The notes beneath the pieces were generated by a model that was not told the origin of the DNA, ran no database searches, and saw only the letters and a list, made by a program, of their open reading frames with translations. Source: Chiloscyllium plagiosum (lineage: Eukaryota). Taken from it: DNA of 34,443 nucleotides. The stretch is taken from positions 59,230,838 through 59,265,280 of the forward strand of contig NC_057718.1 in assembly GCF_004010195.1 (NCBI RefSeq), written 5' to 3'. Made by a program: the position numbers and the translations under genes. Shown here one piece after another: positions 4,392 through 34,443 of the stretch. Positions within the stretch are counted from its first letter, which is position 1; every line of letters begins with the position of its first letter.

Positions 4392-4520
4392 TAGGAGCAA
4401 GTTACTGCAGATGCTGGAATCTGTAGTAAAAACAAAAAATGTTTGGATATCACAGCAGGTCAGTCAGCATCCACGGAGAGAGAGCAAGCTAACGTTGAGT
4501 CTAGATGACTCTTCATCAGA
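4392..4520 (-). mobile_element. Short PLE-type terminal element with degenerate hammerhead motif
   Basis: Shares the actgcagatgctgga tail with other PLE ends; minus strand CTGATGA-A-GAGTC-atcta-GACTC-AACGTT; homologous to 26583-26706. Confidence 0.7.
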
Positions 4521-4630
4521 GAAGTTGATCGGACACTGCCCATAGACCATGTGCCAGAGGCTGAAGGTGATAGCTTTGGTCTTATTACACTAAAATAAAG
4601 TATAACCCATCCAGAGGGCATAGTAGAATA

Positions 4631-5294
4631 CAGGGGAACCTCGATGGGCGCGTTTTCGCTTGGATAATCGATTATTCAGTTAATCAATTAAATGTCTTTC
4701 CTCTGGGGCTCGGAGTTTTTAAAGTCTGCTCCACGTTCAGGACACTGAGCAGCACATAGTGCGAGACCCCACTCTCAACTCCGCCTAACACCACCCCCCG
4801 CCCCCCCAACCCCACGCAGACAAGGGAGAATGTACAAACTCTACACAGTTTTGCCCAAGGCTGGAATCGAACCTGGGACCTTGGTGCTGTGAGGCAGCAG
4901 TGCTAACCACTGAGCCGCCATGCCTTTGTGGGGTAAGTCTCCATAAAGCGCGCGCACACACACACACATCTTTTTACGGCAACTTTTTGACAAGTTTCAC
5001 CTCTGCCCTGTACAGGACAATGTTGGTCAGATTATCTGGGGAAGTGGGGGGGCGTGGGCGGGAGGGGGGGTGTTTAGGGTACACCTCTATGTAGAACTCC
5101 AGGGAAAGTGTGGCGAGAGAGAGAGAACGGGAGGTCAGTCATTTGGAAACGGTGCCTGTTTAATCACTGTTAACCAAAGACACGTCACTGTTGGCAACAC
5201 GTCTTTGATGCAATGTTTCTATCGGGACCTCGAGATCTCCTTCGGATAATCCGATTTTCGGATAATTGGTGTTCAGATAATCGAGGTTCCTCTG
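4631..5294. mobile_element. Non-autonomous Tc1/mariner-pogo (Tigger-like) DNA transposon containing a SINE fragment
   Basis: TIRs CAGGGGAACCTCGAT / ATCGAGGTTCCTCTG flanked by TA on both sides (4629-4630, 5295-5296). Confidence 0.75.
4811..4924 (-). mobile_element. HE1/V-SINE 5' fragment
   Basis: tRNA-like head GGCTCAGTGGTTAGCACTGCTGCCTCACAGC...GGTTCGATTCC plus start of the central domain. Confidence 0.85.
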
Positions 5295-5361
5295 TACCAG
5301 GAATGTAACATGACCAAGCATTGCCCCTGTTCTGGTTCAGCTGCTGCTGGATCTCTCTCTC

Positions 5362-5683
5362 ACTCCCTACAGTATAGAAACAGGCCGTTTGGCCCAACAA
5401 GTCCTTACCGACCCGTCCGAAGAGTAACCCACCCACACCCTTTCCCCTTCCCTGTATTTCCCCCTGACTAATGCACCTAACACTACTGGCAATTTAGCAT
5501 GGCGAATTCACCTGACCTGAACATCTTTGGACTGTGGGAGGAAACCCGAGTACCCAGAGGAAACCAACGCAGACACGGGGAGAATGTGCAAACTCCACAC
5601 AGACAGTTACCCAAGGCTGCAATTAAACCAGGTCCCTGGCGCTGTGAGGTAGCAGTACTAACCACTGTGCCACCGTGCCGCCC
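5362..5683 (-). mobile_element. HE1/V-SINE, near full length
   Basis: tRNA head, V-domain-like core (GGAGTTTGCACATTCTCCCCGTGTCTGCG...CCTCCCACAGTCCAAAGATG) and LINE-derived tail. Confidence 0.9.
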
Positions 5684-5714
5684 CTATGAGGTCATCCAAA
5701 ACTATGTAGTTCAA

Positions 5715-6175
5715 GTCTTAACTTGCATTTGGTCCCATTCATCCATCACTCCTGGGTTCACAGACATACAATGGCTCATGGGCAAGCAACATTTTGGTGT
5801 TAAAATGCTCAACCCATCAAGGCCTCATGTCTCTCGACTCTGGAATCTCTCCCAGGCCCACAACCCACTGAGATATGTGCACTCCTCCTATTCTGGGCAC
5901 TTCTGATTACAATCACTCCATCATTGATGGCCATGACTCCAGCTACCGAGGCTCTAAGCTCTGGGATAGTCTCTCATTCTCTCTCTCTCTCCTTCTCTGC
6001 CTCTCTCTCTCTCTCTCTCTCTTTTCTCCTTTGGGACATTATAAACTCTCTCTTTGAATAGGCTTTTAGTCATTTCTCTATGTGGCTTTGGGTGATATTT
6101 TGTTTTAGAATGCTTCTGGTAAGAGTCTGGACCATTTTATTACAGTAAATATCCAAAATAAAATAGAAATCTGTT
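5715..6175 (+). mobile_element. Degenerate L2-type LINE 3' end containing a (TC)n tract at ~5970-6022
   Basis: Remnants of ITP....QWL...KIL and KLWDSL motifs plus an L2-like 3'UTR. Confidence 0.6.
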
Positions 6176-6234
6176 TTTCCTGATGATTATAATTTCAACC
6201 AAATCATAGCTTAAAGATTACTGAGAGTACTTAC

Positions 6235-6290
6235 TATTTTAACGACATACATGGCATCATCACCAACATTGTCTTCTGTCGCAGGAGAAG
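6235..6290 (-). CDS. VRK2: VRK2-like kinase coding exon (2nd; catalytic Lys)
   Basis: 56 nt, acceptor ttatttctAG, donor GTaagt; (A)SPATEDNVGDDAMYVVKI. Confidence 0.9.
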
Positions 6291-6339
6291 CTAGAAATAA
6301 TTTGGAAGAGATTAGTTAAAATAAATTATTTAAAATAAA

Positions 6340-6452
6340 GGGATATGGGCCAAATGCTGCAAATGGATCTATATCAGTTTAGGATGTCTGATCAGCATGG
6401 ACAGGGTGGACTGAAAGGTCTGCTTCCATGCTGTAGAACTCTATGGCTCTAT
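6340..6452 (+). mobile_element. CR1/HER1 LINE 3' tail
   Basis: gggatatgggccaaatgc...ccatgctgtagaactctatggctcta, homologous to 425-536. Confidence 0.8.
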
Positions 6453-7476
6453 AAATAAAAGGTAACAAGATCAAAACAAAAGTGAACAGTAATTATCAAA
6501 ACAAAACATCATCACTGGATTGCCAACTGAAGAATGACAGTGAAATAGAAACTTGATGACCAGTTACTTTAATGCTTGTTCCTGCAGTAGAACTTCCCTA
6601 ACTCAGGCCTGTAAGTATCTATTTTCTGTTTTACATTGGGAAGCCAAAGCATTGCAATGACGTACTGCAAGGCACGTTCCAGTCCAGTGTGCTCACTCAA
6701 CAAGAAGCAGGCACTATTGGCTAATAGGAGGTTCCTCACTACATTATATCACAAGATTGTAACCAAATAGTGCAGGGAACTTATAAAATTAGATCCCTGA
6801 TTTTATTTAAAATTAGTTGATCTCAGTCAAGATATTAGTGGTAATGTGGCAATGACTATGCATCAGAGCAAAAAAAACTCTCCATTTATAATTATTAAGC
6901 AGTATTTTTGATGCACTGTTTAGTAAAAGGATGAGATAGCATTCCATCCATAATTAGATCAGAAGCTTGACATTAATCAAGTTATTACAGTGAAAATACC
7001 TGTTGAGCATCATGCTGATAGGGTTAGTTGTACAAATAAAAATAGAATGACATGTCACATGCTTCAGTTCTATCCTTTAAGAGTCAAAATTGGACTGAAT
7101 TGGAGTAGGCTAGTCAGTCCAACTAGCCTGCTCTGTTATTGGTTAATCTTATTTCTCCCATCTGCTTTATATTCTTTGGAATCCCTATTTCTCAATTAAG
7201 TATGTATTTTTTTTTCAAAACATTAATTTTTTTCAATTACTTAAATTCAGGTGTCTCCGTGGGGAATCAATGATGAATGCTCTTCAGGGGTTCCCTATCC
7301 CTCCCAAAATAGAAGGGGCAACCCAAAGTTATAGACAACAAAGTAGTTTCCTACTTTGGTAATCCAGTACCAAATTCCAGACTCAAGATCACACTGTTTT
7401 AGCGAGTTTTGAGAAGATTTGTAGCTCAGGTTGAGGTTCTGGATGTAAATTTGCTCGCTGAGCTGGAAGGTTTGTT

Positions 7477-7518
7477 TTCAGATGTTTCAACACCATACTG
7501 GGTAACATCATCAGTGAA
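7477..7518 (-). ncRNA. Minimal type I hammerhead ribozyme motif (partly decayed)
   Basis: UUCA-CUGAUGA-U-GUUACC-CAGUAU-GGUGUU-GAAAC-AUC-UGAA: core boxes intact, 4-bp stem I. Confidence 0.65.
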
Positions 7519-7705
7519 CCTCCAGTGAAGCAATGGTGTTAGTGACCCGCTTTCTATTTGTGTGTTTAGGTTTCCTTGGGCTGGTGACATCATTTCAGAG
7601 GAAAAGACCTCCAAGAAAAAGAACAGGAAATGACATCACCGACCCTAGGAAACCTAAACACATAAATAGAAAGCAGGTCATTAACACCAGTGCCTCACTG
7701 GAGGC

Positions 7706-7745
7706 TCACTGATGATGTTACCTAGTATGGTGACAAAATGTCTGA
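7706..7745 (+). ncRNA. Minimal hammerhead ribozyme motif (CpG-decayed core)
   Basis: UCA-CUGAUGA-U-GUUACC-UAGUAU-GGUGAC-AAAAU-GUC-UGA; two CpG-type transitions from GAC-GAAAC-GUC. Confidence 0.55.
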
Positions 7746-8347
7746 AAACGAACCTTCCAGCTCAGCGAGCAACCTTACTTCCTCACACTGGCTTTTCAAA
7801 ACAAAGTTATTGTTCAAGTTTCTGCTCAAACTACTTGGCAGAGCTTCACAAGGCAAAACCTCGCATGATGCAGTGTGTTTAGGCAAAGTTTTTGAATGGA
7901 ATTGTGTGTTTTTTGCCTTGCAATGAAAAATATTCGGGATATAGTTAAGTGTGGGAATCTGATTCTCATTTTACAAATATAAATAAAAGTGATTAAATAC
8001 AATAAGTAAACATTTTGCCAGGTGTACAGTCTAACACCTAAGTAAACTGATTTTAAGCAACTGAAAATGATGAACAAAACTGTACATCATTTATTAGTTT
8101 CACTGGTACATACTATCCAGATTATTGGCATATTTAGCAACTTGTGAAAAAGGTACCTCGAAGACTTTTGCTGGTAACTGGCAAGTATCGTACACACCAT
8201 GCAAGTGCTGGCAACAATTATTTTTAACAAGCAAGAACCTAATTATCATCCCTTGACATTCAATGACATTGCAATCACTGTATCCCCTACTGTCAACATT
8301 TGTAGAGTTACCACTGACATGAAACTAAACCAGTCCAGCCATGCAAA

Positions 8348-8611
8348 GGGAAGCATGGAGGCTCAGTGGTTAGCACTGTTCAATTCTACCCCCGGGTGAA
8401 TGTCTGTGTAAAGTTTATATATTTTCCCTATGTCGGTGTCAGTTTTCTCCAGGTGCTCCAGATTCCTCCCACAGTCCAAAGATGTGCAGGTTAGGTGGAA
8501 TAGCCATAGGAAATGCAGGTTTACAGGGATAGGGTAGGAGTGGGATGCTCTTTGTAGGGTCAGTGTAACTGGATGGGCCAAATGGACTCTTTCTTCACTG
8601 TAGGGATTCTA
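8348..8611 (+). mobile_element. HE1/V-SINE (degenerate)
   Basis: GGCTCAGTGGTTAGCACTG head, CCTCCCACAGTCCAAAGATGTGCAGG core and LINE-like tail. Confidence 0.85.
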
Positions 8612-8661
8612 CATAAATACTGTGGGTCAGGAAAACTCAGAATCTGGGAATTCTGAGGTTA

Positions 8662-9375
8662 GTACTATTAATTTGCTGCATGTATTTATGAAAATATTGT
8701 GAAATGTGTATAGGTCGTCATAAGCCTGCGCCATTTTAATTTAATAGGAATAAATCAATAAAAATAAATCATACAAAGTTGGGACAAATTCCATCCACGG
8801 CTTCTTGATTTCCTAAGTGGCAATGGGAAACTGCCACACTCCACAGCTGCCAAATCATTCCCTGAGGCAGCAACTCCAAGGAGTCAGCACACTAAAGCAG
8901 CCCCCACTGCTTCTGACCGAACCCAGAACTCCGCCTCTGCCAAAGCTGCCTAATTGCTGCCGATACACCAGCCCCCGCCAGAGCCAGGAGACTGTCCCAA
9001 CTCTCTGGGACTGGACTCATTTCAACTTCCAAGAACCACTTCATCATCCAAATTAAATCCCATGGACTGAGAAACCATTCATTCCACCACTGTTGCAGAC
9101 GCCACCAAAACATCAGAGCAAAAGAGCAGACGCCAATTCATCAACGCCCGACCAGTTCCTCAAACCTCAACTGCCATGGCCACAAGAAATGGATTGGATT
9201 TGCCACTCAACAGCTCCCCACAACCTCTCTCCAGACAATGCAGCCACTGAAAGAAGAATAAGTGAATTTGATTCAAAAGTTAAAATGAAGAAAATAAAAT
9301 CAAATAAAAGAAGGATGCAGTTGGTCATGGGCTGGGAGCCTGAACACCTCCTACGCTGCCGCCTCTGCCATCTTG
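8662..9375 (-). mobile_element. Unclassified non-coding insertion, probably a non-autonomous retroelement
   Basis: Interrupts the collinear LINE; minus strand starts CAAGATGGC (YY1-like) with a GC-rich head and ends in an AT-rich tail. Confidence 0.4.
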
Positions 9376-9764
9376 CAAATAACTCACCTCCTGACTCCAC
9401 AAACCCTGTCTACCACTACAAGGCAGAAGTCAGAAGTATGATACTGCTCTATACTGGTCTGGATGAATGCAGCTCCAACGACACTGAAGAAGCTCAACCA
9501 CCACATAGGTCAAACTCTACGGTCAATCGTGTTTAATTGCACTCATTTGTGATGATTCACATCCAAAGTGTGTGTTTCGTCATCACTTTACAGCTAATGG
9601 TGCTCTAATAGTTGTTTGGTAATATAGAACTTCAGCATTTCTCCAACCAACGAATGAATGCGACCTACTTTGTTGAAAATTTAAACAGGCACAGTGGATG
9701 TACAGTGCAAGAGTGGCAGGGGTAAGATTCTGTCTGTCAAGAAGAGGGACTTGCATATCACAGT

Positions 9765-10105
9765 CATCCCCTATTCTCTTTCCCCACTCTCTTGTCTCTC
9801 CACCCCATCCTCCTACCATCACTCCTCAGCCCCGTCTCCCTCCTCCACATCCCCTTCTCCTCCCTCAACCCATCTCCATTCTCCATCTCTGCACATCTTT
9901 CAACTGCCCTCACTAACTCTCTTTCTCTCTCTCTCCACCTTCCCTTTGTTCCTACATCTCCTCTAACACCCCTTTTCCCTATCTCCCACCCTGTTCCTCC
10001 TCTCTTTCTCCCCAATCACCCCTCTGTCTCATATCCATCATCCCTCTCTATCCCTACATCTCTCCATGATTCCTCCTCTTTTCCTCATTCTCCTCCCTCC
10101 TCAGC
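9765..10105 (+). repeat. Polypyrimidine (CT-rich) low-complexity tract
   Basis: About 340 bp that are strongly C/T-rich with very few G. Confidence 0.85.
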
Positions 10106-10653
10106 CATGTCTTGTTCCCTGTCCCGTTAATGTCAGGCATTGACCGGATTGGGACATTAGGTTGGAAGCTTGTTCTGCTCTGGTCCCAGTCCAGGCACCA
10201 TGTTATACTAAGGAATAGTGGAAGGGATACGCATGTGGGTTCAGGAATTCCCTCAGGGGTGTGGGGAGGTTTGGGAGTTCATGATTGGTTTGAGATGTTG
10301 GGTGGCTGGGTCTGAGTTTACAGGTAAGTGAGACATCAAGCAAAAAAGGTGAGAGTTTGCCTAGAGTGGCAGGGGTAAGAGTTTGGGTACCAGGGCAGCT
10401 CAACCTGGGAGATGGCTGATCTAGCTATCTTGGTGAAGTGTAATTTGTTTCATATGTAATATTACTGATGGAGCTACTCTGTCATCATTGTTTAAAGCAT
10501 AAATCCTGATTAAATTACCCAGTCCAGTCCTGAGTTTCATCACACGGTATGTGTGTGTGCGGGAGGTGTGGGGCAGCCTGAGTCTGTCAAGCTTTGAAGT
10601 ATTTGCAAATGATATTTTACCAATGTAGATGGGGTGATGTAGCTTTTCTTGAT

Positions 10654-10778
10654 AGGTAAAAGCAATGACTGCAGATGCTGGAAACCAGATTCTGGATTAG
10701 TGGTGCTGGAAGAGCACAGCAGTTCAGGCAGCATCCAAGGAGCAGCGAAATCGACGTTTCGGGCAAAAGCCCTTCATC
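10654..10778 (-). mobile_element. PLE 3' terminal fragment ending inside the hammerhead core
   Basis: Minus strand GATGA-A-GGGC-tttt-GCCC-GAAAC-GTC followed by the PLE tail; homologous to 14546-14660. Confidence 0.8.
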
Positions 10779-12350
10779 TCCAGCTCCAGGATCTCAATGC
10801 TCAATACACAAGAACAACAGCCAATTAGGTGGAGGCTGTCAGAAAGGAAGTTCCTGTTTTTTTTTTAACCCTCTGAAGCGAAGAGACAATGATGTAAATC
10901 AAGATGGCAAGTGGCATGAATAGAAACTTGATCCCAAACAGCTACTCCCTCCGGCCTTCCACATTGTAGAGACTGTTGAATTGGGAAATGTTTTCAAAGA
11001 AACCTTCACAGATTGGCAGGTCACTAGCTCACAATTTATATATTTTTTTAAATAACTTAATTTCACTGCCTTATTTCTCCAAAGTTGCTACATTTACACC
11101 TTTGACTATATCTTTATCATCTCCCCTATTCGTACTCCTCATACCTTGTTTTTCCACAGAGTTGATCGCCATATCAGAATCTGCACAGAGATCATTCTGG
11201 AGGAGTGTCCATGGGGTCACCAGAAGCAGTGGGCACAGGGGTCACATTGAAGGAATGGGCACAGACAGCCAGAATAATGATCAGAGGAAGAGTAGCATGC
11301 TCGTTGAAATGGAAGGGGCGAGGAAAGCACTTGGGAAAAAGTTTGGAAATATGCACTAAAATTTATTTATTTTTGCTTCTTTTATAACCTGTAGGAAGCT
11401 GCATTTTGTTGCCTATAATAACTGCATATACAAATTTAACAACTATGAACAGTTTGAATGTGCCTTATAGATCACAATCACTTAGCCTGTGAATCAAGAT
11501 TCATCCCAAAATCACACTATTTGATTTCAAATGATGCACTCGGGAATTATCAAACACCGAAGGCATGTTAATATTTACTGGTAGGGAAAACAGCCCACTT
11601 GATTGGTGCCACATCCACCACCTTAAATAATCCTAGTTCTTTCACCTGTTACACAGTGGCAGCAGTGTGTACCATCTACAAGAATGCACCGCAGTGGTCC
11701 ACCAAGGCTTCACAGCCAGACCACCTGCCTAACTGGTGAACTCCACCAGTTCGAAAAACCAAGGGCAGCATATGCATGGGAACACCACCACCTGCAAGTT
11801 ATCTTCCAAGCTACACACCAGCCTGACTTGGAATTATACCACCGTCCATTCACTATTATTGGGTCAAACTTCTGGACCAATTTCCTGATAACATTATTAT
11901 TGCATCCAACAAGTCAAGAAATCAGCTCAAGAAGCTGGCTCACCACCACCTTCTCAAGGACAACTCGGAATGAGCAATAATGCTGGCCCTAGCCAGTGAT
12001 GTCTATATTCTGTAATGGAATAAATAGAAACCAAGAAAAATGCACTGTGCACTGGGCAAAAGACTTGTCTTCATATTCCTACTTCTATTGTTTTCAGTAA
12101 GAGAATGAGATGTGAATATGATAACTTGATTCACATAAAAATAAATAACAGAATTACTATAATATTGGGTGTGTTAAGGTTTTTTTTAAAAAAAAACATG
12201 TTGATCTACGTTAGTAAGTTAGAAATATCTTCGCGTTTGGACCTTATGTCCTGTAGTGGTTTTTTGTGCAAAACAACCTTTGCCTAATCCAGTAATTATT
12301 CATTCTAACTAAACCACCTTTAAAAGCTTAGGCTTTATCAGCCTTCTTAC

Positions 12351-12486
12351 CCAAGTGTATCAGCCCAAATCCACCATTACCAATAACTTTCCCAAGTTTC
12401 CAGTGTTTCTTTTCAAAATCCACAAGGATAAAGCCCTCAGGGAGAGGATCAGGAAGCTTCTTTCTCATGTTGCCTTTGGGTGGCAT
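12351..12486 (-). CDS. VRK2: VRK2-like kinase first coding exon (exon begins at 12491 with 5 nt of 5'UTR)
   Basis: Acceptor ccttttgttAG, then GTCTG ATG; 136 coding nt, donor GTaaga; MPPKGNMRKKLPDPLPEGFILVDFEKKHWKLGKVIGNGGFGLIHL with the Gly-rich loop; the short MPPK...KLP.P.PEG N-terminus is VRK2-like rather than VRK1-like. Confidence 0.92.
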
Positions 12487-13008
12487 CAGACCTAACAAAA
12501 GGAAGACATGTTTTATTCATGTTTACAAATGCATAAAACAAACTACAGTTTCTTTTTCCACAGAATGTTATGCCTTCTTTTATCAATGTAACTGATCAAG
12601 CTCATGCGATATATGGTGGTCTCATATATGTAAGATATATACTATATATAAAAATAGATCAACTTTTGAGATGGTTACAAGAGTTAGTGTTACAACACAG
12701 ACAGCCAAATCATATCAGCCTCCCTATCCCCATATTCACAAAATAATAAAATTAAAATATTCAAATAACCCTCAAAATTGACTCCAATGGTTCCTAACCA
12801 GAGTTTTTTGAATAACCAGTACCAGACTTTGTGAATAATCAAAACTATGATGCACACTGGCTATATAGCTAAAAAAGATTTCACAATTTATTAGTAATAC
12901 AGTAATTTTAGCAGAGCAAAATTCAACAAATAATCCAATTAATGTCTAAGATTTTTCCTTCTAGCCTCCAGTCTCACACAAAGATAGAGACAATCAGAAG
13001 TAGTTAAG

Positions 13009-14663
13009 CTACCTAGCTACCTAGACTACACCTCCCTGTATACATCTTTCCACCACGGCGAAGGTCTCCAAGCCTTCCATTTCTTGCCCTCACGCCGTCC
13101 CAACCAGTACCTTTCCACTGACACTCATCTGTCTGGCTGAACTGGTTCTCACCCTCAACAACTTCTCCTTCAAATCCTCCCACTTCCTCCCTTCCTCCAA
13201 ACCAAAGGGGTAGCCATGGGCACCCACATGGGACCCAGCTATGCCTGCCTGCTTGTCAGATATGTGGAACAGTCCATCTTCCACAGTTACACCGACACCA
13301 GCCCCCACCTGTTCCTCTGCTTATCGATGATTATATCATCGCCACTTCATGCTCCCATGAGGAGGTTGAACAGTTCATCAACTTTACCAACACCTTCGAC
13401 CCTGACCTCAAATTCACCTGGACCATCTCGGCAACCTCCCTCCCCTTTCTGGACCTCTCCATCACTGTCTCCAGCGACCGACTAACCACAGACATCTTCT
13501 ACAAACCCATCAAATTCCACAGCTACCTAGACTATACCTCCTCCCAACCTACCTCCTGTAAAAATGCCATCACTTATTCCCACTTCCTCTGCCTCCGCCG
13601 CATCTGTTCCTAGGATGACCAATTCCACCTTAGAAATTCCCAGATAGCCTCCTTCTTCCAAGATCACAACTTCCCCTCCCACATCGTTGATGATGCTGTC
13701 CAGCGCATCTCCTCCATTTCACACACCACTGCCCTTGAACCCCACCCTTCCCAATGCAACAAGGACCCAACCCCCCTGATCCTCACCTTTCACCCCATCA
13801 ATCTCTGCATACATCACATCATCCTCCACCACTTCTGCCATCTCCAAACGGACCACACCACCAGAGATTTATTACCCTCCCCACCCCTATAAGGAGAGAC
13901 CATTTCCTCTGTGACTCTCTCGTCCACTCCGGGCATGTTCCCCTGCCACTGCAGGAAGTGCAAAACCTACGCCCACACCACTCCTCTCACCTCTGGGCAA
14001 GGCCCCAAAGGATCCTTCCACATCCATCAGAAATTTACCTGTACCTCCACCGATGTCATCTACTGTATCTGTTGCACCTGGTGTGGTCTCCTCTACATTG
14101 GGGAGACAGGACGCCTTCTTGCGGATCGTTTCAGAGAGCATCTTTGAGTCACCCACACCAACCCCACCGCCTTGTGGCTGAACACTTTAACTCCCCCTCC
14201 CACCCAATGACATGCAGGTCCTTGGCCTCCTTCACCATCAAACCGTTACCACCCGATGCCTGGAGGAAGAAAACTTTCGACCCTGCAACCACACAGGATA
14301 AATGTGGATCTCAACCGCTTCCTCATTTTCCCTCCCACCACATTATCCCAGTACCAAGCCTCCAACTCGGCACCGCCCTCCTGATCTGTCCATCACCTTT
14401 CCCATCTATCTGCTTCACCCCCCACCCCTATCTATCACCCTCGCCCTCACCTTCATCCACCTATCGCTTTCTTAGTTTCCTTCCCCCCAACCCCAACCCC
14501 CTCCCATTTATCTCTCGGCCCCCCTGGCCCACAAGCCTCATTCCTGATGAAGGACTTTTGCCCAAAACATCGATTCTCCTGCTCCTCGGATGCTGCCTGA
14601 ACTGCTTTTCCAGCACCACACTCTCGACTCTGATCTCCAACATCTGCAGCCCTCACTTTCTCA
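13009..14663 (+). mobile_element. 5'-truncated, disrupted Penelope-like retroelement (RT + Cys linker + GIY-YIG; Neptune-like)
   Basis: SLYTS, LNNFSF, MGTHMGPSYA, LPFLDL, YLDYTS RT remnants; CHCRKCKT linker; DVIYCICCTWCGLLYIGETGR..RFREH endonuclease; frameshifts and stops; TSD tagttaag at 13001-13008 and 14664-14671. Confidence 0.92.
14541..14575 (+). ncRNA. Decayed minimal hammerhead motif in the PLE 3' repeat
   Basis: CUGAUGA-A-GGAC-uuuu-GCCC-AAAAC-AUC; CpG-decayed version of GGGC-uuuu-GCCC-GAAAC-GUC seen at 10753-10778. Confidence 0.55.
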
Positions 14664-15739
14664 TAGTTAAGGGACAAATCTAAAGGAAAAATAAATGAGA
14701 TATAACTGGCCAGTTCACTCAAAAGGACTCCACGATCCATAACATCACCAACACATAGAATTATACTTGCTTGGATTCGGACGACACTAATGCATGCAAA
14801 CCTCTTCCGGAAGGCTCCGAGGAATATTCATTTAATTCTTATAACAGAGATTCTATTCTCCACATTTTCAATAAATTGATAATAAGAGGACAACCTGGCA
14901 GCAATCAAACCTCTGTTCACAAACAGAATCCTTCTGGCCTAAACACAACCAGGCCCAGTTCAAACTCTGGCCTCTCTCTGCTTGACTAACAGTCTCCACA
15001 CAAGGTCCGAGTTGATATTCAACATCTGCCATCTGCTTGAGCATAAGTGTCTATAAAGCACTTTTTAATAAGAATCAGTCTGTAATTAACTTACAGGTCT
15101 GACCTTAAATGCAAAATTCAGCTTGTTTGTTCTTATGCTTTGGTCAACATAAGCTGCTGTTTGCAGTCCAAAGGTGATCTTCAGCTCTCAGCTCACAGTT
15201 CACAGCTACAAACCAAAAATGATTTTAAAAAAATGAAATACCGTTGACGGTCTGACAGCAACTTTGGGAATGCATCAGAACAATTTGGAGTTGCAGTTGC
15301 TGACAATAAGTCTATGCTCCACCACAGGGGACAATATTGACTTGTCCCTCCCCACAACCTACTCCATATCAGAGATCTCCAAATCATTCAGTGAGCTGGC
15401 AAACTCACTTTTACACTGCTGATCGCATTGTAAAACTCCTTTAAAAAAATTATGTGGTTGAATGTGATGGGATTGTTTTAAAGTGCATTCACTTCATAAT
15501 TACAAATCAACAATTCTGCTTCTATCACAATCCACTATAATTATTTTTCAGTATTTGAAATCGAATTTAGAAATGGGGGAATTCAATGCTTCTAGCTTCC
15601 AAATTTATTCTATTCACTGACATGATAACTGCTGGATGGCTGGAGATCCCCTTGACACTGCAGCCAGATTCAAACTGCCATCAGGAAAGAGGAAGTCAGC
15701 ACATAAAGTTACCAGATCTCAGTCAACAGAGTCAGATAT

Positions 15740-15855
15740 GGATGTAGGTTTGCTCGCTGAGCTGCAAGGTTCATTGAAAATGAACCTTCCAGCTCAGAGA
15801 GCAAACCTACATCCAGAACCTCAACGTGAGCTACAAATCTTCTCAAAACTCGCTA
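15740..15855 (+). mobile_element. Miniature fold-back element of the same family as 7400-7782
   Basis: ~37-bp inverted arms with a 3-nt loop plus 40-nt tail; TSD agagtcagatat / agagtcagttat (15728-15739, 15856-15867). Confidence 0.8.
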
Positions 15856-17141
15856 AGAGTCAGTTATCTCCAGCATGAGTGGCATGTGACCACATTTTGC
15901 CATTCAATAAAAAAAATCAGGCTGAATCTGAATTCCATAGCCCAGAAAAAGGAAAAACATGGTCAGATTAACATTGACTCCTTTTTTATGTTGACTCCAT
16001 GGTGTAAAGATTTACCAAATAATGAAGCTGGAACATATTTTTCCAAAAATCATTGACTTGAATTGGAATGCAATGCAATACAATTATTCTAAATGTATTG
16101 GTTGTTCCCCCATGAATTTAATGAATATCTGAATTTCCACTGGTTGGTCAGACTCATCATTAGAAGTGTACGGTTTGATGAAGTTCTTTACTTGTATCCA
16201 TTTTTGTACTGAACAAACCAGCAATCTTTGACTGATAACATTGATGGACCAGATAAATCTCGGGGTTGCTAGGCGGCAATGTTCAATTCTGCCCAGCAAT
16301 AGGGAGAAACTGCCAAGTATTTGATAGGTCACTCAGGACAGTACCAAAATGTAGTTCAAAGGTTACAGGCAGTGAATGTGTATTTGGAGAAACAGACTTT
16401 TCCCAATTATGTTGATAATAATTTGCTTGTTCACTAGCCCCAGTATCTCATCATTTGTTAATTATTTCTTTCAAAAGGTTCTTTACTTCTCCCCCAAACC
16501 CACAATTCAAAGCCAATGAACAAGTTGGTTTGTCTTTACATAAGTTTCAAGTCTCTAATCTGTGCATCACCTCAAAGGAAGCTCTTTGTCATTCACTTAA
16601 GGCCTTAATACTTTTCCAATCGCTTTTAAAAGGGTCTACATATTCCATGTATTAACTTGGTGAGGCATGATTAAAACAACGGAAAAATCAGTTCTTCACA
16701 GAAAAACAGCACGCTTTAATCACAATGCCAATTCATTGCTTCAAAAATCCCATCTACAAATACAGAAATTCATTTTATATTAATACACAAAACTATTTGC
16801 TAGTTATCTTGAGGTTCGTGAACCAGTATCTTAGCAGCTCAAAGCAAATGTTGTATTTAAAAGCTTTCAAAATATATGTTTTAATCCATTGCATCCAAAA
16901 GGTGTTGTCATTAATTTTTGAAGCCATTCTGAAAGCCTGCAAACAAGTGCATTGGCGTAGAATTGTTACGATCACTAATTCACACTTGAGCAGGCTGCTG
17001 CAAGGCTACTTGTCACCTGGAGGTGAACCTTGAACTTATTGTTGCTCACTCCTCCAATACACTTGAGGAAGAAATGATAGAACCCAGATTACACGTCGAA
17101 TGGAAGAGAGAGACACAAAGTAAACTGCCCAGCAGGTAGGG

Positions 17142-23974: not shown

Positions 23975-24730
23975 TTAGGAGTCATTGAGTCATAAAGCAC
24001 AGAAACAGATCCTTCGATACATTCACACCACGCCAGACATAATCCCAAACTAAAGTAGTCCCACCTATTCGCTCCTGGCCCACATCCCTCCGAACCTTTC
24101 CTATTCACGTACTTATCAAAATACCTTTTAAACATTGTAATTTTTCCTCAGAAAGTTCATTCCACACATAAACCACCCTCTGAAAAACAGTTGCCCCTCA
24201 TGTTTTTCTGTTTAAAATCTCTCTCATGTCACATTAAACATGTGCAACCTAGTCTTGAAATCCTCTAAACTCGGGAAAATACAACTACCCTTAACTCTAT
24301 CTCTACCTTTCATTATTTGATAAACTTCTATCAAGTCACCTCTCAACTTCCTACACTGCAGCAAAAAAAAAACCCAGCCTTTCTTTATAACACAAACTTT
24401 CCATACTGGGCAACATCCTGGGAAATATCTTCTGAATCCTCTCCAGCTTAAATAATATCCTTTCTGTAACTGGGTGACTAGAATCAGATACAGTATTCCA
24501 GAAGAGGCCTCATCAATGTCAATCTCAACATAACTTTTCAACTCCTATATTCACAGGACTGAGCAATGATGGCAAATGTGCCAAATTAACCACCTTGTCT
24601 ATGTGTTGCAAACTTTCAATGAATTATGGACCTGAACCCCCCACATCCCTCTGTTCCACGCCACGACACAAGGCCCTACCATTAATTGTGTAAGCCTTGT
24701 TTGTTGTACCTCACATTTATCCAGATTGAA
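23975..24730 (-). mobile_element. CR1/HER1 LINE 3' fragment
   Basis: KLRGDLIEVYQIMKG and FKRYFDKYVNRKG motifs; 3' tail. Confidence 0.88.
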
Positions 24731-24829
24731 GCTCAAACTAGAGACCTGGATTTAGCACATTCGTGGCACACAAAATGTTTATAAAATATCAAATTATATA
24801 TTTTTCAAAGTTCTATTTTAGTTTAAAAC

Positions 24830-25890: not shown

Positions 25891-25919
25891 GATTGTTCAT
25901 TCTGTATGTCTGTGCCAGT

Positions 25920-26415
25920 GAGTCATAGAAATTACAGCACTGAAACAGGCCCTTGGGACCAACTCGGCTATATGCCGACCAGATATCCTAGCCTAACCTA
26001 ATCTAGTCCCATTTGCCAGCGCCTGAACCATATTCCTGTAAACCCTTTCTATTCCTATACTCATCCAGATGCATTTTGAATGTTGTAATTATACCAGCCT
26101 CTACCACTTCCTCTGGCAGCTCATTCCATACACGGACCATATACCTGAAAAAGTTGTCTGTTGGGTCCCTTTTGAAATTTTCCCCTCTCAACCTAAACCT
26201 ATGCCCTCTAGTTCTGGACTCCCCCATCCCAGGGAAAAGACCTTGTCTATTTACCTTATTCATGCCCCTCATAATTTTGTAAACCTCTATAAGGTCACCC
26301 CTCAGCGTCTGACACTCCAGGGGAAACAGCCCATGCCCTTCATGATTTTATAAACCTCTATAAGGTCGCCCCTCAGCCTCCAGCACTCCAGGGAATACAG
26401 CCCCAGCCAATTTGC
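25920..26415 (-). mobile_element. CR1/HER1 LINE 3' fragment with a 71-bp tandem duplication at its 5' end
   Basis: SRTRGHRF..VRVWNELPEEVVEAG...FKMHLD; diverged repeat units 26262-26332 and 26333-26403. Confidence 0.9.
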
Positions 26416-26582: not shown

Positions 26583-26706
26583 TAGGAACAAATTACTGCA
26601 GATGCTGGAATCTGTACTGAAAAAAAACTGAAGATCACAGCAGGTCAGATAGCTTGCTTTCTCCCCATGAACGCTAATGTTTCAAGTGTAGATGACTCTT
26701 CATCAG
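26583..26706 (-). mobile_element. Short PLE-type terminal element with hammerhead motif
   Basis: Homologous to 4392-4520; minus strand CTGATGA-A-GAGT-catctac-ACTT-GAAAC-ATT. Confidence 0.7.
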
Positions 26707-26799: not shown

Positions 26800-27832
26800 G
26801 AAGCAGGCACCCCAGTGGGCAACTGAGGAGCAGATGGATGAAGAGAGAGGACACTGGAGGCCGGTGTCCAGTGATGTTCCACAGGGATATCTTATTGTTT
26901 ATGATATTCATAAATGATGTAGACAATGCAAGGGGGTGGGGGATGATAAGTAAATTTCTGGATGACACAAACAGTGGCTGGGTGGTTGACAGTGATGAGG
27001 GAGGCCTTGAGTTACGGGCTAATATCGATGGTTTGGCCAGATCAGTGGCAGATGGGGTTTAACCCTGATAAATTTGAGATGATGCATTTTGGAAGAAATA
27101 ACAAGATATGAAAGTGCAAAATGAATGGCAGGACATTGGGAAGCTCGGGGGAACAGAGGGATCTTGGGGTCCTGGTCCACAGATCCATGAAGATGTCTGG
27201 ACAGCATAATAGGGTAGTTGGGAAGGCATACGGCATGCTTACCTTTATTAGCTGAGGCATATGTTATAAGAGCAGGAAGGTTATATTGGAGCTATACAGA
27301 ATTTTGGTTAGGCCACAGTTGGAGTACTGTGTGCAGTTCTCTTTACCACATTAAAGGAAGAATGTAATTGCAGTGGAGGAGTTCCAGAGAAGATTCACCA
27401 TGATGTTGCCTAGGATGGAGCTTTTCAGCTGTAAATAGAGGATAAATAGCTTTGTGTTGTTTTCTATAGAGCGGAGAAAGTTGAGGGTGGTCTAGATTGA
27501 GACATATAAAATTATGAGGGGCATGGATAGGGTGAATAAGAAGCAGCTGTTCCCCTTAGTCAAAGGGTCAAGAACAAGAGAGTTCACTTTTTAAGAAGAC
27601 TTAGTCGGGATTTGTGTACAAGTAATTCCATCCAGAGCGTAATTTTGGATCTGGAATTCCCTGCCAAGGAGAGTAGTTGTGACAGGTAACCTCACAATCT
27701 TTAAAAAGTACTTGGACAAATACTTGCAGTGTCATAACATTCAAGGCTATGGGCCTATTGTGGGAAAGTGTATTTTTGGTGGTACAGACACGATGGGATG
27801 AAGGGCCTCTTCTGGACTCCATGATTCTATGA
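26800..27832 (+). mobile_element. Degenerate CR1 LINE (RT to 3' end)
   Basis: VPQG, LLFMIFINDVD...ISKFLDDT, QRDLGV, LVRPQLEYCVQF remnants; attctatga tail. Confidence 0.9.
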
Positions 27833-29714: not shown

Positions 29715-29980
29715 AGAGCACATGGAGAAAAACCCTCTGCAATTAAAGGGCATAGGTTTAAGGTAAGAGGAAAAATATAAAATGGACTTAAGGAGCAACA
29801 TTTTCAGGCAGAGTGTGGTGCATGTTTGGAATGAGTAACCAGAAGAAGTGATGGAGGCAAATGAATTTAGAGAGTTATGTGCCAAATGCTGTCAAATGGG
29901 ACTGAATTGATTTAGGATATCTGGTTGGCATGGACTGGTTGGACCATAGGGTCTGTTTCTATGCTTTACAACCCTATGAT
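29715..29980 (+). mobile_element. CR1/HER1 LINE 3' fragment
   Basis: GHRFKVR...NIFRQSVVHVWNE.PEEV remnant and 3'UTR. Confidence 0.85.
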
Positions 29981-30795
29981 GATGACTAATTGGCAATTAG
30001 CCAGAGTTTGGTAAAATTCAGCCCACTGGCACTCAGCATACCTTAAGAGTCGAAAATAGACTTCGGATCTGCAAGTATGAGTCTCTAAAAACAAGTGGGC
30101 TAGAGCCAGGCCAGAGGGAAAGATAATAATAAAAACTTTGGTAGGTTGGGGGGTTGAATTTGAGGTCATAGCCAAGTTCTCCACCATAGGAGTTTGATGG
30201 CATTATATAATAAAGAATCAGTAAATTAGTGCTTTTGAAGGTCTGACGGACAGCCTGTCTGTGAACATGAAATGTTGGGAATACGTATCTATAACTAAGG
30301 ACTATCTGGAATATAGCTCGTAAGATTTTGAGCTATTTAGACATTAACTAGACATAAAATATTCTTTTCTTCTTTGAAATAAAGCCATTATTCAATGGTT
30401 TACTTGCTGTTTATGAGAAATCGGGTGACTTCAGAGAAGCAGTCAAACAAAACTTTCAGAAAGGCAAGAGATGGGATTTATTGTCTCAATTATTAGAAAA
30501 TCTGGCTTTGAAGAGGGTGGGCCCTCTATCTTAATGGTCATCTAGCAAACTCCTTTTGGTCTTAGAGTTATGTTTACAGGAGTAAGTGTAAAGAGAATAT
30601 TACAGAAGCCTCTCCCCTGAAATCCTTTACTCAGTAAAACTTCCTCGGAACCTGATAAAGCTTTCAAGCATCTAGTATTGCTGTCTACCTGGTAAAACCT
30701 GCAGGAATGAACTGTGACCAATCCCTAGTGACTTGAATCCAAGTTAATTAGAATCATAGGTGTACAGTTGGCTTCAATCTACAGATTGCTCCCTG

Positions 30796-30830
30796 ACCTG
30801 CTGTGCTTTTCCAGCACCACACTCTCAACT
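30796..30830 (+). mobile_element. Tiny PLE tail fragment
   Basis: cctgacctgctgtgcttttccagcaccacactctc matches ~14596-14625. Confidence 0.6.
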
Positions 30831-33800
30831 TCAATCAACAGCTGTCAACAATTCAGCTTCATCAACAGGAAATCCAATGGATTTGTGAATATGTCATATT
30901 GTATACTTTGTTTATGATTCTTCGCCCAAGGCATTGTTTTTCCCCTTTTATTTTAAATGCAACTTCAGCAGCGATGAATCTTTTTTTGTCTTGTGTGAAC
31001 ATGCCTGAGTGCAGGAATAAGAAGAAATAATTCTATTTCTGGATCATCATTTAGGTTGACATTTAGAAATAAGTCAACTTAAGTTTACCTATCCTTATTA
31101 AAACGTGTTTTTTATTATCTACTCTTCCATTTTGCCATAAAATATTGCTATAATTCCTTGAGATCCTTACAGTCTTGTGACACACTCTTGGGTATCTGTA
31201 TTGTTTTGACAGTTGTGCACACAAGTGTGGCAATAATTGTTGACAGAACATTAGACAACTTAAAACAGCAATAATTGATGGAGACAACTGACAGTCTATC
31301 TTTGTGCAGTGTTGACAAAGGCATTAAGCATGATCAGTCATTGACAATCTTAATGTGCAGAGTTTGTTGCCAATGGAGTAGCCTGTTCAATAATAGCAAA
31401 ATCTGCAGAATGTTGAAATCTGACACAATATTATAACAAAGCCCATCAACAGTTTCACTCAAGAGTTATCAGAAAAGCACTTTCAGGTTAATATCTTAAT
31501 ATTGAGACCTTTGAAAGCTGTTGTTAGTGTGAAAATGATGCTTAAACTATCCATCAAATCATTTCTACTGTCAAGATGGTATAGTACAAGAATCAAGAAC
31601 TGAATATTGTGGGTGTTTATTTTATAGTGAAATCAATCTAACAAGACGCTTTAAATTAAGAGAACAATTCTTCACAGCCATTTCAACCATGGAAATCCAG
31701 CCCATATGTTCATATTTTGTAAAGAAAACTTGAATGTGAGTTGCTGTAGGAAATATCATTTCATAATTTTCCAAAATCAAAGGATCTTCAAACATTTGGA
31801 TGCTCTTAACATCTCCATTTGAGATAACCACGCTCAGAGTTACTATCCATGCAAACTGTTTGCTATTCTATTAAAAATATTCAGACCAGGGTTTGCTTAT
31901 CTTGTTTTTAGGACAGAAATCAAGAAGCATTTGAAAGGTGGTTGTTGATAATTTGCAGAATACGCAGGGCATCAGCAAGGTCAGCATATCTCACTCATCA
32001 CTCATTCTCCCTAAAGTACAACAGTGTGGTTTGGTAAGTCCTCTCAGGAAAGAGTCAAGCACAATGCTGAGGGTGTGGAGTCACATATAGGTCAGACTGG
32101 CTAATAATGACAAATTAGAACATGTGAATTAGGAGTAGGCTATTCAACCAGGTATCAATTTCCTTCTCTAAACGACATCAGTGAACCAGGTGGACTTTTA
32201 AAACACTTTTGTAGCTACCATTTATCTATTAACTTTTGTTTCATTTTGGATTTCTTTCTTTAGCAAATTTAAATGTTCCAGCTTCTATGGTGGATTTTGA
32301 AGTATGCATTCAGATTTGTCACTCTATGACTCTGGATTAATAGCACAGTCACAGAGCTACTATGCTGCCATTGTCAATAGCATTATTTTGTTAAACGGAA
32401 CTGTTACACATATGACCTATTCTCAAACTTGAAATTTGTCTTCTATGATGAAAGCAGAGCTTCCTGCATCCTGAACCAGTTATTGGTTTGTTCATTGTAA
32501 ATAAATAGAGCCATTGTCTATGTATTTACTGGAAATGCTGATGGCAGCCTTTGCATTTTTGACATATCATTAAGTATTATCCATCATTCTGAAAAAAAAG
32601 GAATTATTTAACTATTCATCATATTTCACAAGTTGAAAGTGATTGAGATTTTACAAAGTGGTTCGTGCTAATACCCTATCATGTAAATAATGCAGGTCTG
32701 CTTGAGATCAGTAATGCATGCTGAAATTGGGGATTCTGTGAAATGGATGGTTTTATAACTTAATTTGCAAATAATGTGCATGACATTTCTAGTCATTAGC
32801 AGATCTCAGCTTGGCAACTTTTCCCTTATAAAAGTGTAAGTCTTTATTTCATGTGATAATTTACAAATTAGTGCTTCTTCAATTGCAGAAAAATAAATGA
32901 TGAGGAAGAAAGCAGCTGGCCTTGCCATCATCAGCCTGAGACATGCAAGAATTTTATGAAAAGATTTGAGAAAAAATAAGTGTGAAATGCCTGTGTCCAC
33001 TATTTTTAGTGGGACTGATTAATGCATTTGTATCAGATTCCCATGTATGCAGTTGAGACAAAATTGTTACCTCATTTATTTTAATTGAATTAATGATTTT
33101 GTTAAAATAGCAGACTCAGTTATTTGATAGAATAGCATTAACCATTGGACTAAAAATAGTGGTCAAAGGACTACTGAGCCTTGACAATTAAGAGTTGGTA
33201 GGAAACCTCCAGAGAAACAGTGTAATTCTTTTCCCAGTTGAAGTACAATAAGAAGGGCATGCAGTGCATTTAATTTATCTCGAAAAAAGGGATGCATCTC
33301 TAAGGAACTAAAGTTGTAAGTGCACTCACTATTTTACAGCTTCATAATGTCACGTAGATGATCCGAGATTGGGTGAGTTGAGGGAAATTCAGGTTATGAG
33401 AGACTTTAAGCTCTTAGGTGTATTTTATTGAAATGAGATACCAAGCAATGCACAAATGGAAATATTGTACAGACAGCCAACTCTTGAGTTCTTTTGAATT
33501 AAATTATTATTGAAGGAAATATAATCCTCAGTGCCAAGGCATCAGGATTATGGAATTTTCCATCACCCTGTAGCAAAACTTGCAATCTTTTTTCTGAAAT
33601 ATCCACTTGTGCTTTCCAACAGTACTCAAAAGAAAGCATTTTACAATGCTCCCACACAGCAATAAGTTTGCTTCCCTAATTCAGTAAAAACATCTCACCC
33701 ATAAAAACGGCATTTCATGTTAATGCTATCTTACTAATGCAGTCGTCTTCAATATCTTTTTCAAGAAAGTCATCTCTCCATCTAATTCATTAACATTTTA

Positions 33801-34212
33801 CTTATTTTTAACTTTGATAATTTTTTTTCTTTCCTGATGTACTGTTGACCTCTCTTTTAAAGTTGAGAGGTCAACCTTTACATTCCGATCAACTTCTGCT
33901 CCAGCTGTAACTTCTCCCTGAGAATATTATCATTGTGTGTCAGCTCCATGTTTATATCTTTCAAAACTTCCTGATGAAATTCCTCCATATTGACTTTTGC
34001 TCAATGCTCTGACCAAAGTCACCAACAATGTATGTTATAAGGAAGGTGTGCAATTCCTTGCTTCCTATCACAATCTCATTTCCGCGGTTTGATAAAACGT
34101 ACCATCATCTCTCAACTACCATGAAGCTGTACAGAGCTGTCCGTGCTGATTCAACCCTTATTAACTCAGCCACAGTGCATCTCTAGCAATAACTTGTCTC
34201 CCCATTCCTAAA

Positions 34213-34443
34213 TGCTGAAAATGTGTTGCTGGAAAAGCGCAGCAGGTCAGGCAGCATCCAAGGAGCAGGAGAATCGACGTTTCGGGCATGAGCCTTCTTC
34301 AGGAATGAGGAAAGTGTGTCCAGCAGCCTAAGATAAAAGGTAGGGAGGAGGCGCGTTGGAAATGCGATAGGTGGAAGGAGGTCAAGGTGAGGGTGATAGG
34401 CCGGAGTGGGGGTGGGGGCGGAGAGGTCAGGAAGAAGATTGCA
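34213..34443 (-). mobile_element. PLE 3' end (young; continues beyond right edge) with hammerhead motif at 34271-34306
   Basis: Reverse complement of a PLE 3' region; CUGAAGA-A-GGC-ucau-GCCC-GAAAC-GUC with CpGs retained. Confidence 0.85.

What the first reader, a model, noticed from the sequence alone, without database searches (positions are those of the whole stretch)
4392..34306. Seven minimal hammerhead-ribozyme motifs from three PLE-type families in one 34-kb locus
Seen: CUGANGA-N-stemII-GAAAC-NUH motifs, or decayed versions, at ~4489-4519(-), 7477-7518(-), 7706-7745(+), 10753-10778(-, truncated), 14541-14575(+), 26673-26706(-) and 34271-34306(-). They carry three different stem II helices (GAGUC/GACUC, GUUACC/GGUGAC, GGGC/GCCC) around the same core, which acts like covariation. 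Established: PLE terminal repeats carry minimal type I hammerheads with a palindromic, loopless stem III thought to work as dimers. Inference: most copies are inactivated by CpG decay of C-GAAAC-G; 34271-34306 has the best-preserved core. The minus-strand copies inside VRK2 introns are sense to the pre-mRNA.
Basis: partly seen in the sequence, partly recalled or inferred. Interest (0 to 1): 0.7.

Follow-up and report, generated by a model that had tools for sequence, protein, structure and literature searches.

The report
Decayed Penelope-element hammerheads in shark introns
The seven motifs are real but all damaged copies of the small "minimal hammerhead" RNA motif already described at the ends of Penelope-like jumping genes; here they are leftovers of six insertions in and near a shark kinase gene, and they are likely inert.

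Summary
All seven motifs are present, within a few bases of the stated coordinates, and exceed chance: 3 keep the invariant core, against a mean of 0.095 in 200 shuffles. They come from six insertions; 7481(-) and 7709(+) are two arms of one target-site-flanked inverted insert. Family C follows a broken RT + GIY-YIG Penelope-like ORF (75-81% identical to Chiloscyllium proteins). Family A shares its tail. Family B has Penelope-type architecture and is very abundant, but no ORF link was found. 0 of 7 copies pass the published min-hammerhead descriptor. CpG decay affects 4 of 7; the other three carry a deletion or truncation. 34276-34302 has the best core. Three minus-strand copies lie sense in introns of a VRK (probably VRK2) gene; all three are defective. 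The class has been in print since 2014, and this scan has reported it repeatedly in this genome. One lead was tested: a ribozyme-less B palindrome pivots at the predicted cut site. Laid reads showed no end or junction there among the rows displayed. Verdict: correct catch, known kind, low interest.

The parts
4392..4519 (-). Family A short PLE-type tail fragment; hammerhead A1 at 4491-4519 lacks two bases of the GAAA box; lies in a VRK intron, sense
7399..7782 (.). Family B head-to-head inverted insertion (arms 7441-7596 and 7627-7782, extra tail 7399-7440 on the minus arm only), flanked by an 8-bp repeat at 7389-7396 and 7783-7790; lies in a VRK intron
7481..7514 (-). Hammerhead B1: invariant core kept; G16.2>A, C11.1>U and a U.U pair at 10.2-11.2
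7709..7742 (+). Hammerhead B2: stems intact, G12>A and C15.2>U (CpG decay)
10669..10778 (-). Family C tail fragment; hammerhead C1 at 10753-10778 is 5'-truncated at G5 (no C3, U4 or stem I 5' strand); lies in a VRK intron, sense
13021..14378 (+). 5'-truncated, frameshifted Penelope-like ORF remnant: RT C-terminal part, decayed CX5CxxC linker, GIY-YIG endonuclease
14544..14571 (+). Hammerhead C2 in the 3' end of the family C element (tail to about 14649): G12>A, G16.2>A, G10.3>A
15739..15856 (.). Second family B palindrome without a hammerhead; the plus arm starts 1-2 nt after the predicted cut site, the minus arm 5-6 nt after it; 12-bp flanking repeat (11 of 12)
26583..26706 (-). Family A tail fragment; hammerhead A2 at 26676-26706 keeps the invariant core but has C11.1>U, G16.2>A, a stem II mismatch and no stem I
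34222..34443 (-). Family C 3' end running off the window; hammerhead C3 at 34276-34302 keeps all invariant bases and ACGU, lacks one stem II base, stem I has a U.U mismatch
1743..1812 (-). Family C tail without hammerhead
30787..30830 (+). Family C tail without hammerhead, 13-bp flanking repeat (12 of 13)
60..12491 (-). Host VRK-family kinase gene, probably VRK2: coding exons at about 12351-12491 (ATG 12486), 6235-6290, 3806-3875, 3391-3478, 3200-3308, and about 60-153; a 5' untranslated exon lies further upstream and was not located

Best explanation
The seven motifs are damaged copies of minimal type I hammerhead motifs left by six insertions of three repeat families (one shown to be a Penelope-like retrotransposon, two inferred to be), and they are likely inert. 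In the source elements the motif would sit in the pseudo-LTR and would cleave only as a dimer, or with help from the element's protein, because stem III (ACGU) has no loop. Reverse transcription likely starts at a few fixed sites 30-80 nt downstream of the motif and usually stops early. That would scatter short tails, many of them headed by the motif, and head-to-head pairs with a tail on one arm only. After insertion the copies decay, often at the two CpGs in the motif. At this locus no copy is intact, no intact same-strand partner exists, and the B pair is predicted to be locked in a long hairpin, so cleavage of the VRK pre-mRNA is unlikely.
For: Shown: motifs exceed shuffles. The C body aligns with RT and GIY-YIG proteins of Chiloscyllium, Rhincodon and rays, 17 hits at E<=0.001 among 528 candidates. 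The A and C tails are homologous (26 nt at 92%, E 9e-6). B has inverted arms, a one-sided tail and an 8-bp flanking repeat. B is massively repeated: 24,780 and 13,769 contigs laid in two runs of organism A and 1,052 in organism B, with discrete 3' ends at 7399/7400, 7407, 7443 and 7450 followed by AT-rich flanks. Family letters restore stem II (7490 T 98%, 7500 A 90% in X1), and both CpG decay forms occur. 0 of 7 copies pass the published descriptor, while the in-script B reconstruction passes. The B insert folds at -247.7 kcal/mol, z -26. From papers: min-HHR features and low dimer-only activity (PMC4209133); two RT start sites, tail and AT-rich targets, protein-assisted and dispensable cleavage (PMC11167929); inverted copy, tail and target duplication (PMC3846280, PMC8557442).
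Against: No ORF link for B: a profile-free search gave one spurious repeat hit and a word search gave none. At the two core CpGs the laid majority is the decayed letter (7489 G 41%, 7483 C 28% in X1), so the intact B core is an inferred ancestral state; the reference itself is decayed there and biases this. The family C reconstruction (3 copies) fails the 3-bp stem I and family A stem I could not be assessed. The Pfam GIY-YIG score of the window piece (18.5 bits) is below the curated cut-off (22.6). No genome was held, so families A and C have no genome-wide consensus. No cleavage was measured.
Confidence: 0.88

Rival explanations
1. Families A and B are non-autonomous, hammerhead-headed elements (retrozyme- or SINE-like) that are transcribed and copied as units of their own by a PLE protein, rather than truncation products of autonomous PLEs.
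For: Both A copies begin at or within about 2 nt of C3 and end at the same tail; no ORF was linked to A or B; B is very abundant and B reads occur in a poly(A) RNA run (457 reads); bioRxiv 10.64898/2026.07.22.740005 derives animal retrozymes from pLTRs and reports them in one chondrichthyan.
Against: No tandem units in the window, whereas retrozymes are defined as tandem repeats. The two B palindromes have different centres, and laid contigs show varied inversion joints, as expected if each is built at insertion. C shows the same kind of short tails alongside an ORF-bearing copy.
Confidence: 0.15
2. The cleaved RNA is sometimes the template for insertion, so 5' ends and inversion junctions mark the hammerhead cut site and record in vivo self-cleavage.
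For: In the 15739-15856 palindrome the plus arm starts at +1/+2 and the minus arm at +5/+6 relative to the predicted cut. Summed depth falls about 4.6-fold between bins 7461-7470 and 7491-7500 in X1.
Against: One event, noticed after the fact. In one search none of the 24 loose-end rows shown (799 not shown) or 15 joint rows shown (28 not shown) lies at 7480/7481, and the table of common molecule ends is empty. The depth fall is gradual and coincides with mismatches private to the reference. Palindrome centres can also be deleted after insertion. PMC11167929 found no RNA-seq ends at the cut site and cleavage dispensable in vitro.
Confidence: 0.08
3. Sense-strand intronic copies have been co-opted to cut or regulate the VRK pre-mRNA, alone or as mixed dimers through the shared ACGU stem III.
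For: A1, B1 and C1 are sense within coding-region introns; ACGU is common to all three family reconstructions.
Against: All three are defective (A1 lacks G12-A13, B1 has three weakening changes and is predicted to be hairpin-locked, C1 lacks C3-U4); stem I strands differ between families; the changes look like neutral CpG decay; even repaired in-script dimers fold about 28 kcal/mol above the minimum-energy state (arbitrary linker, weak test).
Confidence: 0.03
4. The motifs are chance matches to a short degenerate pattern.
For: Rfam gave no hammerhead hit; a loose two-mismatch scan finds about 1 hit per shuffle and 3 unrelated hits in the window.
Against: Strict patterns exceed shuffles about 30-fold; every motif sits at the same place in a repeat family with homologous tails.
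Confidence: 0.01

Closest known systems
Minimal hammerheads (min-HHR) of metazoan Penelope-like elements (Cervera & de la Pena 2014, PMC4209133; dimer cleavage also Lunse et al., known here only from a review passage and reference)
   Same: Type I topology, CUGANGA plus one extra base, G10.1-C11.1, 4-6 bp stem II, loopless palindromic stem III, short stem I, several families per genome, mostly solitary copies, some on opposite strands 100-700 bp apart.
   Different: No cartilaginous fish among the 56 rows of Fig. S3 or in Table S1. The copies here are all decayed. The family C reconstruction has a U.U mismatch in stem I.
Endonuclease-positive PLE insertion units, Neptune/Nematis type for family C (Craig et al. 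2021 PMC8557442; Arkhipova et al. 2013 PMC3846280; Frangieh et al. 2024 PMC11167929)
   Same: RT followed by a CX2-5CxxC linker and GIY-YIG domain, 5' truncation, inverted 5'-truncated copy, one-sided tail, 8-12 bp target duplication, discrete 3' ends, AT-rich targets.
   Different: The ORF is a broken remnant; no tree was built, so Neptune versus Nematis is not resolved; clade of A and B unknown; B shows four 3' end classes rather than two.
Non-LTR retrozymes (Cervera & de la Pena 2020 PMC7229834; Li et al. 2026 bioRxiv 10.64898/2026.07.22.740005)
   Same: Type I hammerhead in a short non-coding repeat related to pLTRs; reported in one chondrichthyan genome.
   Different: Retrozymes are head-to-tail tandem units; these are dispersed or head-to-head copies with loopless minimal motifs.
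Domesticated intronic hammerheads of amniotes (RECK and related; figure legend in PMC6155905)
   Same: Hammerhead motif on the sense strand of an intron.
   Different: Those are few-copy, conserved, canonical motifs with tertiary contacts; these are multi-copy, minimal and broken.

Membership tests
PLE min-HHR (Cervera 2014) | CUGANGA box plus one unpaired base before stem II | tested here: met
   6 of 7 copies have the full box (C1 lacks C3, U4); 7 of 7 have the extra base
PLE min-HHR (Cervera 2014) | Stem II of 3-7 bp closed by G10.1-C11.1 | tested here: met
   A 5 bp, B 6 bp, C 4 bp in the in-script reconstructions; G10.1 in 7 of 7 copies, C11.1 in 5 of 7, U in 2
PLE min-HHR (Cervera 2014) | GAAANNUH with palindromic 15.2-16.2 and no loop 3 | tested here: met
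   Complete in C1 and C3; restored in all three reconstructions; B ancestral CG inferred from both decay forms in laid contigs
PLE min-HHR (Cervera 2014) | Stem I of at least 3 bp | tested here: inconclusive
   Met for B (UCA/UGA); not met for the three-copy C reconstruction (U.U at the third pair); not assessable for A because the copies start at about C3
PLE min-HHR (Cervera 2014) | An individual copy passes the published descriptor (Fig. S7) | tested here: not met
   0 of 7; A2 and C3 pass all but stem I. The copies are relics of the class, not intact members
PLE min-HHR (Cervera 2014) | Position in the pLTR downstream of an RT-EN ORF | tested here: inconclusive
   Met for C2 (about 165 nt after the ORF remnant); not shown for A or B
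PLE min-HHR (Cervera 2014) | Self-cleavage as a dimer or with protein help | not testable with these tools
   No assay; no RNA end at the B cut site, but the library type is unsuited
EN+ PLE, Neptune/Nematis type (family C) | RT followed by C-terminal GIY-YIG endonuclease | tested here: met
   tblastn of P0003 and P0005 covers 13021-14378; those proteins match RVT_1 and GIY-YIG, P0001/P0002 pass the RVT_1 cut-off; the window piece matches GIY-YIG at E 0.0025, below cut-off
EN+ PLE, Neptune/Nematis type (family C) | CX2-5CxxC linker between RT and EN | tested here: met
   Intact in close relatives such as P0003 and P0005; the window remnant has lost the last Cys
EN+ PLE, Neptune/Nematis type (family C) | RT phylogeny | not tested
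   No reference PLE set was on hand; no tree built
EN+ PLE insertion unit (family B) | Inverted 5'-truncated copy, one-sided tail, target-site duplication, discrete 3' ends | tested here: met
   Both B inserts; 3' ends at 7399/7400, 7407, 7443, 7450 with AT-rich flanks
Non-LTR retrozyme | Head-to-tail tandem units each with a type I hammerhead | tested here: not met
   No tandem hammerhead-bearing repeat among the window's repeat families shown; not tested genome-wide
Domesticated intronic hammerhead | Intact canonical core with stable stem III | tested here: not met
   All three sense intronic copies are defective
Domesticated intronic hammerhead | Conservation at the orthologous locus across species | not tested
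   No shark genomes were searchable

The most novel reading that the evidence does not exclude
Shark PLE insertions keep a fossil record of in vivo hammerhead cleavage: the ribozyme-less palindrome at 15739-15856 formed when both ends of a target break copied an RNA already cut after GUC, so its pivot marks the cut. A genome-wide excess of such pivots among tens of thousands of family B copies would be the first evidence that minimal PLE hammerheads cut the transposition template in the germ line.
Probability: 0.08. Interest if true: 0.55.

Novelty: new member of a known kind. Interest (0 to 1): 0.14.

Why it matters
As found, it matters little: it extends a class described in 2014 to three repeat families of a shark. 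Searches for hammerhead + Penelope + shark, hammerhead ribozyme + elasmobranch or Callorhinchus, and Chiloscyllium + Penelope listed no paper describing these families (open-access library only), but a 2026 preprint already reports hammerhead-bearing retrozymes in one chondrichthyan. The open question nearby is real: whether PLE min-hammerheads cut in vivo and what for. Very high-copy shark families offer a large natural sample of 5' ends and decay patterns with which to test it, but this window does not answer it.

Tried and rejected
Whole genome: none held, so no genome-wide consensus for A or C. Rfam: no hammerhead at E<=10; the miRNA-type hits at 7550-7673 and 15732-15830 are below gathering scores and reflect the B palindromes. 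Tail-motif scans for more copies: viral contigs gave 18 and 0 matches, metagenome contigs 0 and 0, genome contigs 3 bacterial matches; the 21 loci were taken as chance from their sources and not opened. Sequencing runs: no RNA holder on record was listed for 2000-4400, which is no evidence on expression. Cut-site pile-up for B: not seen among the rows displayed; lead not supported, not excluded. B ORF link: one hit, a KRAB zinc-finger protein with an internal repeat, rejected as spurious; word search, 4 candidates, none at E<=0.1. Dimer folding of in-script B and C reconstructions: hammerhead fold -12.8 and -6.6 against minimum -40.8 and -35.1 kcal/mol, with an arbitrary linker, so weak evidence. 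The first partition of C3 was one base out of register; one search corrected it. Flanking-repeat scan of 8 elements: clear for both B inserts and C5, borderline for A2, not significant for A1, C1 and C4; the C2 match lies away from the element ends. Lunse et al. was not held; it might list shark examples. bioRxiv supplements were closed, so the chondrichthyan species and families in the 2026 preprint were not seen.
Full report
Setting. The window is shark DNA: the retroelement ORF at 13021-14378 is 75-81% identical over part of its length to proteins named Chiloscyllium punctatum, with weaker hits in whale shark and rays. A VRK-family kinase gene runs on the minus strand, with coding exons at about 12351-12491, 6235-6290, 3806-3875, 3391-3478, 3200-3308 and 60-153. 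The first coding exon matches VRK2 best (E 7e-7, against 5e-5 for VRK1), but the 3200-3308 exon matches VRK1 best (3e-6, against 6e-5). VRK2 is therefore probable, not proven. The ATG exon follows an AG acceptor, so an untranslated exon lies upstream. A CpG-richer stretch at 24751-26000 is a candidate promoter, which would put A2 and C3 outside the transcript; this was not tested.

Observation. All seven motifs are present (Hertel numbering recalled and as used in PMC4209133). A1 4491-4519(-): core box and 5-bp stem II intact, two bases of GAAA missing. B1 7481-7514(-): invariant bases kept, C11.1>U, U.U at 10.2-11.2, G16.2>A. B2 7709-7742(+): stems intact, G12>A, C15.2>U. C1 10753-10778(-): intact from G5 onward, C3, U4 and the stem I 5' strand absent. 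C2 14544-14571(+): G12>A, G16.2>A, G10.3>A. A2 26676-26706(-): invariant bases kept, C11.1>U, G16.2>A, one stem II mismatch, no stem I. C3 34276-34302(-): all invariant bases and ACGU kept, one stem II base missing. A full-core pattern finds 3 sites against a mean of 0.095 in 200 shuffles. A one-mismatch descriptor finds 2 against 0.07 in 30 shuffles. A two-mismatch descriptor finds 7 against 1.07, of which 3 are unrelated noise. Rfam has no hit. With the published descriptor (Fig. S7), 0 of 7 copies pass and 2 pass all but stem I.

Decay. Of the 14 CpG sites in the seven motifs, 8 show a CpG-type transition (two each in A2, B1, B2, C2), 1 is hit by a deletion (A1) and 5 are intact (counted by eye). 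CpG decay thus affects 4 of 7 copies and removes an invariant base in 2. The window's CpG observed/expected ratio is 0.27.

Families. C: C2 follows a 5'-truncated, frameshifted ORF that aligns with proteins carrying RT, a CX5CxxC linker and GIY-YIG. Craig et al. (passages read) give that linker as the mark of Neptune and Nematis. Five C tails are in the window, three with the motif. A: two copies, 72% identical over 130 columns, whose tails share a block with C (92% over 26 nt, E 9e-6); both begin at about C3. B: 7399-7782 is one insert with 156-nt arms, 87% complementary, a 42-nt tail on one arm and an 8-bp flanking repeat, so seven motifs are six insertions. A second B palindrome at 15739-15856 has the same long-tail and short-tail ends, a 12-bp flanking repeat and no hammerhead. 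This is the insertion layout described for PLEs (passages of PMC3846280 and PMC8557442). Two protein searches with the peptide read upstream of B2 found no ORF relative.

Family B in sequencing runs (stretch 7341-7640, 80% likeness, 4 of 24 listed runs). Laid: 24,780 contigs (X1), 13,769 (X5), 1,052 (X15, organism B) and 457 raw RNA reads (X21, about 2% of the run). Unique flank depth was 9.5 in X1 against up to 1.07 million summed in the tail; the tool warns this is not a copy number, but the family is plainly very abundant. Loose ends with AT-rich, low-agreement flanks pile at 7399/7400, 7407, 7443 and 7450, i.e. discrete 3' ends. This matches the internal RT start sites and AT-rich targets shown for the anole element (PMC11167929, parts 1-2 of 4 read). 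Family letters repair stem II (7490 T 98%, 7500 A 90% in X1) and set stem I at 3 bp (7518 G 94%). At the two CpGs the intact letter is a minority (7489 G 41%, 7483 C 28%) and the opposite decay form also occurs (6% and 7%). The intact core is thus the inferred ancestral state and most laid sequence is decayed, with a bias from the decayed reference. 32 further rows were not shown. RNA reads are family reads (254 of 457 under 90% alike), about five-fold biased to one strand; they say nothing about this locus.

The cut-site lead. In the 15.7-kb palindrome the plus arm begins 1-2 nt after the predicted cleavage triplet and the minus arm 5-6 nt after it, as if both arms were copied to the 5' end of a cleaved RNA. 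In one search no displayed loose end (24 shown, 799 hidden), no displayed joint (15 shown, 28 hidden) and no molecule-end peak lies at 7480/7481. The 5'-side loose ends shown for the DNA runs are at 7517, 7540 and 7596, and their loose letters largely continue as family-like sequence. Depth does fall across the motif, but gradually and where the reference has private changes. The lead is not supported and not excluded. In the window, A1, A2 and C1 instead begin at C3-G5. This fits earlier scan notes that 5' ends gather at the upstream edge of the motif; I did not test that genome-wide.

Mechanism. Shown: sequence, families, architecture, abundance of B, defects of each copy. From papers: min-hammerheads do not cleave as monomers and cleave weakly as dimers (PMC4209133); the anole motif cleaves only with its protein, cleavage is dispensable for insertion in vitro, and no RNA-seq ends were found at the site (PMC11167929). 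Inferred: these copies are by-products of early-stopping reverse transcription from fixed sites downstream of the motif, and have decayed neutrally. The three sense intronic copies (A1, B1, C1) cannot form a complete ribozyme, and B1 is predicted to pair with its own antisense arm (-247.7 kcal/mol, z -26). The three-copy C reconstruction has a U.U mismatch in stem I and fails the descriptor; if that holds genome-wide, a family spread with a weakened ribozyme, in line with cleavage being dispensable.

Known and new. The class, the many solitary copies, several families per genome and opposite-strand pairs are all in Cervera & de la Pena 2014. No cartilaginous fish is in its Table S1 or Fig. S3. 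Five listed searches found no description of these shark families. A 2026 preprint (parts 1 and 3 of 5 and passages read; supplements closed) reports hammerhead-bearing retrozymes in one chondrichthyan, and Lunse et al. could not be read. Earlier notes of this scan report the same class many times in this genome; they are AI notes and were used as leads only. Verdict: real, correctly recognised, new members of a known kind, locally dead; interest 0.14.

Noticed in passing
window 15739-15856: Hammerhead-less family B palindrome whose pivot lies at the predicted cut site (+1/+2 and +5/+6), with a 12-bp flanking repeat.
   Followed up: partly
window 7481-7514 and 7709-7742: The family B motif resembles the two Clonorchis sinensis rows of Fig. 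S3 in PMC4209133 (U as extra base, 6-bp stem II, 6-nt loop). Could be shared lineage, transfer or convergence of a short motif.
   Followed up: no
window 4519, 26706, 10778: Three short copies begin at C3-G5 of the motif; for A2 a 7-bp flanking repeat abuts C3.
   Followed up: partly
window 14536-14575 and 34272-34310: Family C stem I has a U.U mismatch at the third pair in the copies that retain both strands.
   Followed up: partly
window 7407 (run X21): 26 RNA reads carry a poly-T run directly at a family B 3' end, suggesting oligo-dT priming on sense transcripts ending there or on an A-rich flank; strand bias about 5:1.
   Followed up: no
window 24751-26000: CpG-richer stretch (o/e 0.5-0.8), candidate promoter region for the VRK gene or a divergent neighbour.
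   Followed up: no
window 19715-19974: Tandem duplication of 130 nt at 98% identity.
   Followed up: no
window 4851-4924, 5456-5685, 8378-8606, 20065-20308, 21473-21740; 366-534, 24042-24400, 25933-26402, 26800-27830, 29816-29979: Other interspersed repeat fragments; by recall they look like tRNA-derived SINEs and CR1-type LINE 3' ends, not tested.
   Followed up: no
P0009, P0014: Ray proteins annotated as a divergent protein kinase domain protein and a nicotinamide riboside kinase isoform contain this PLE ORF piece; probably gene-model fusions.
   Followed up: no
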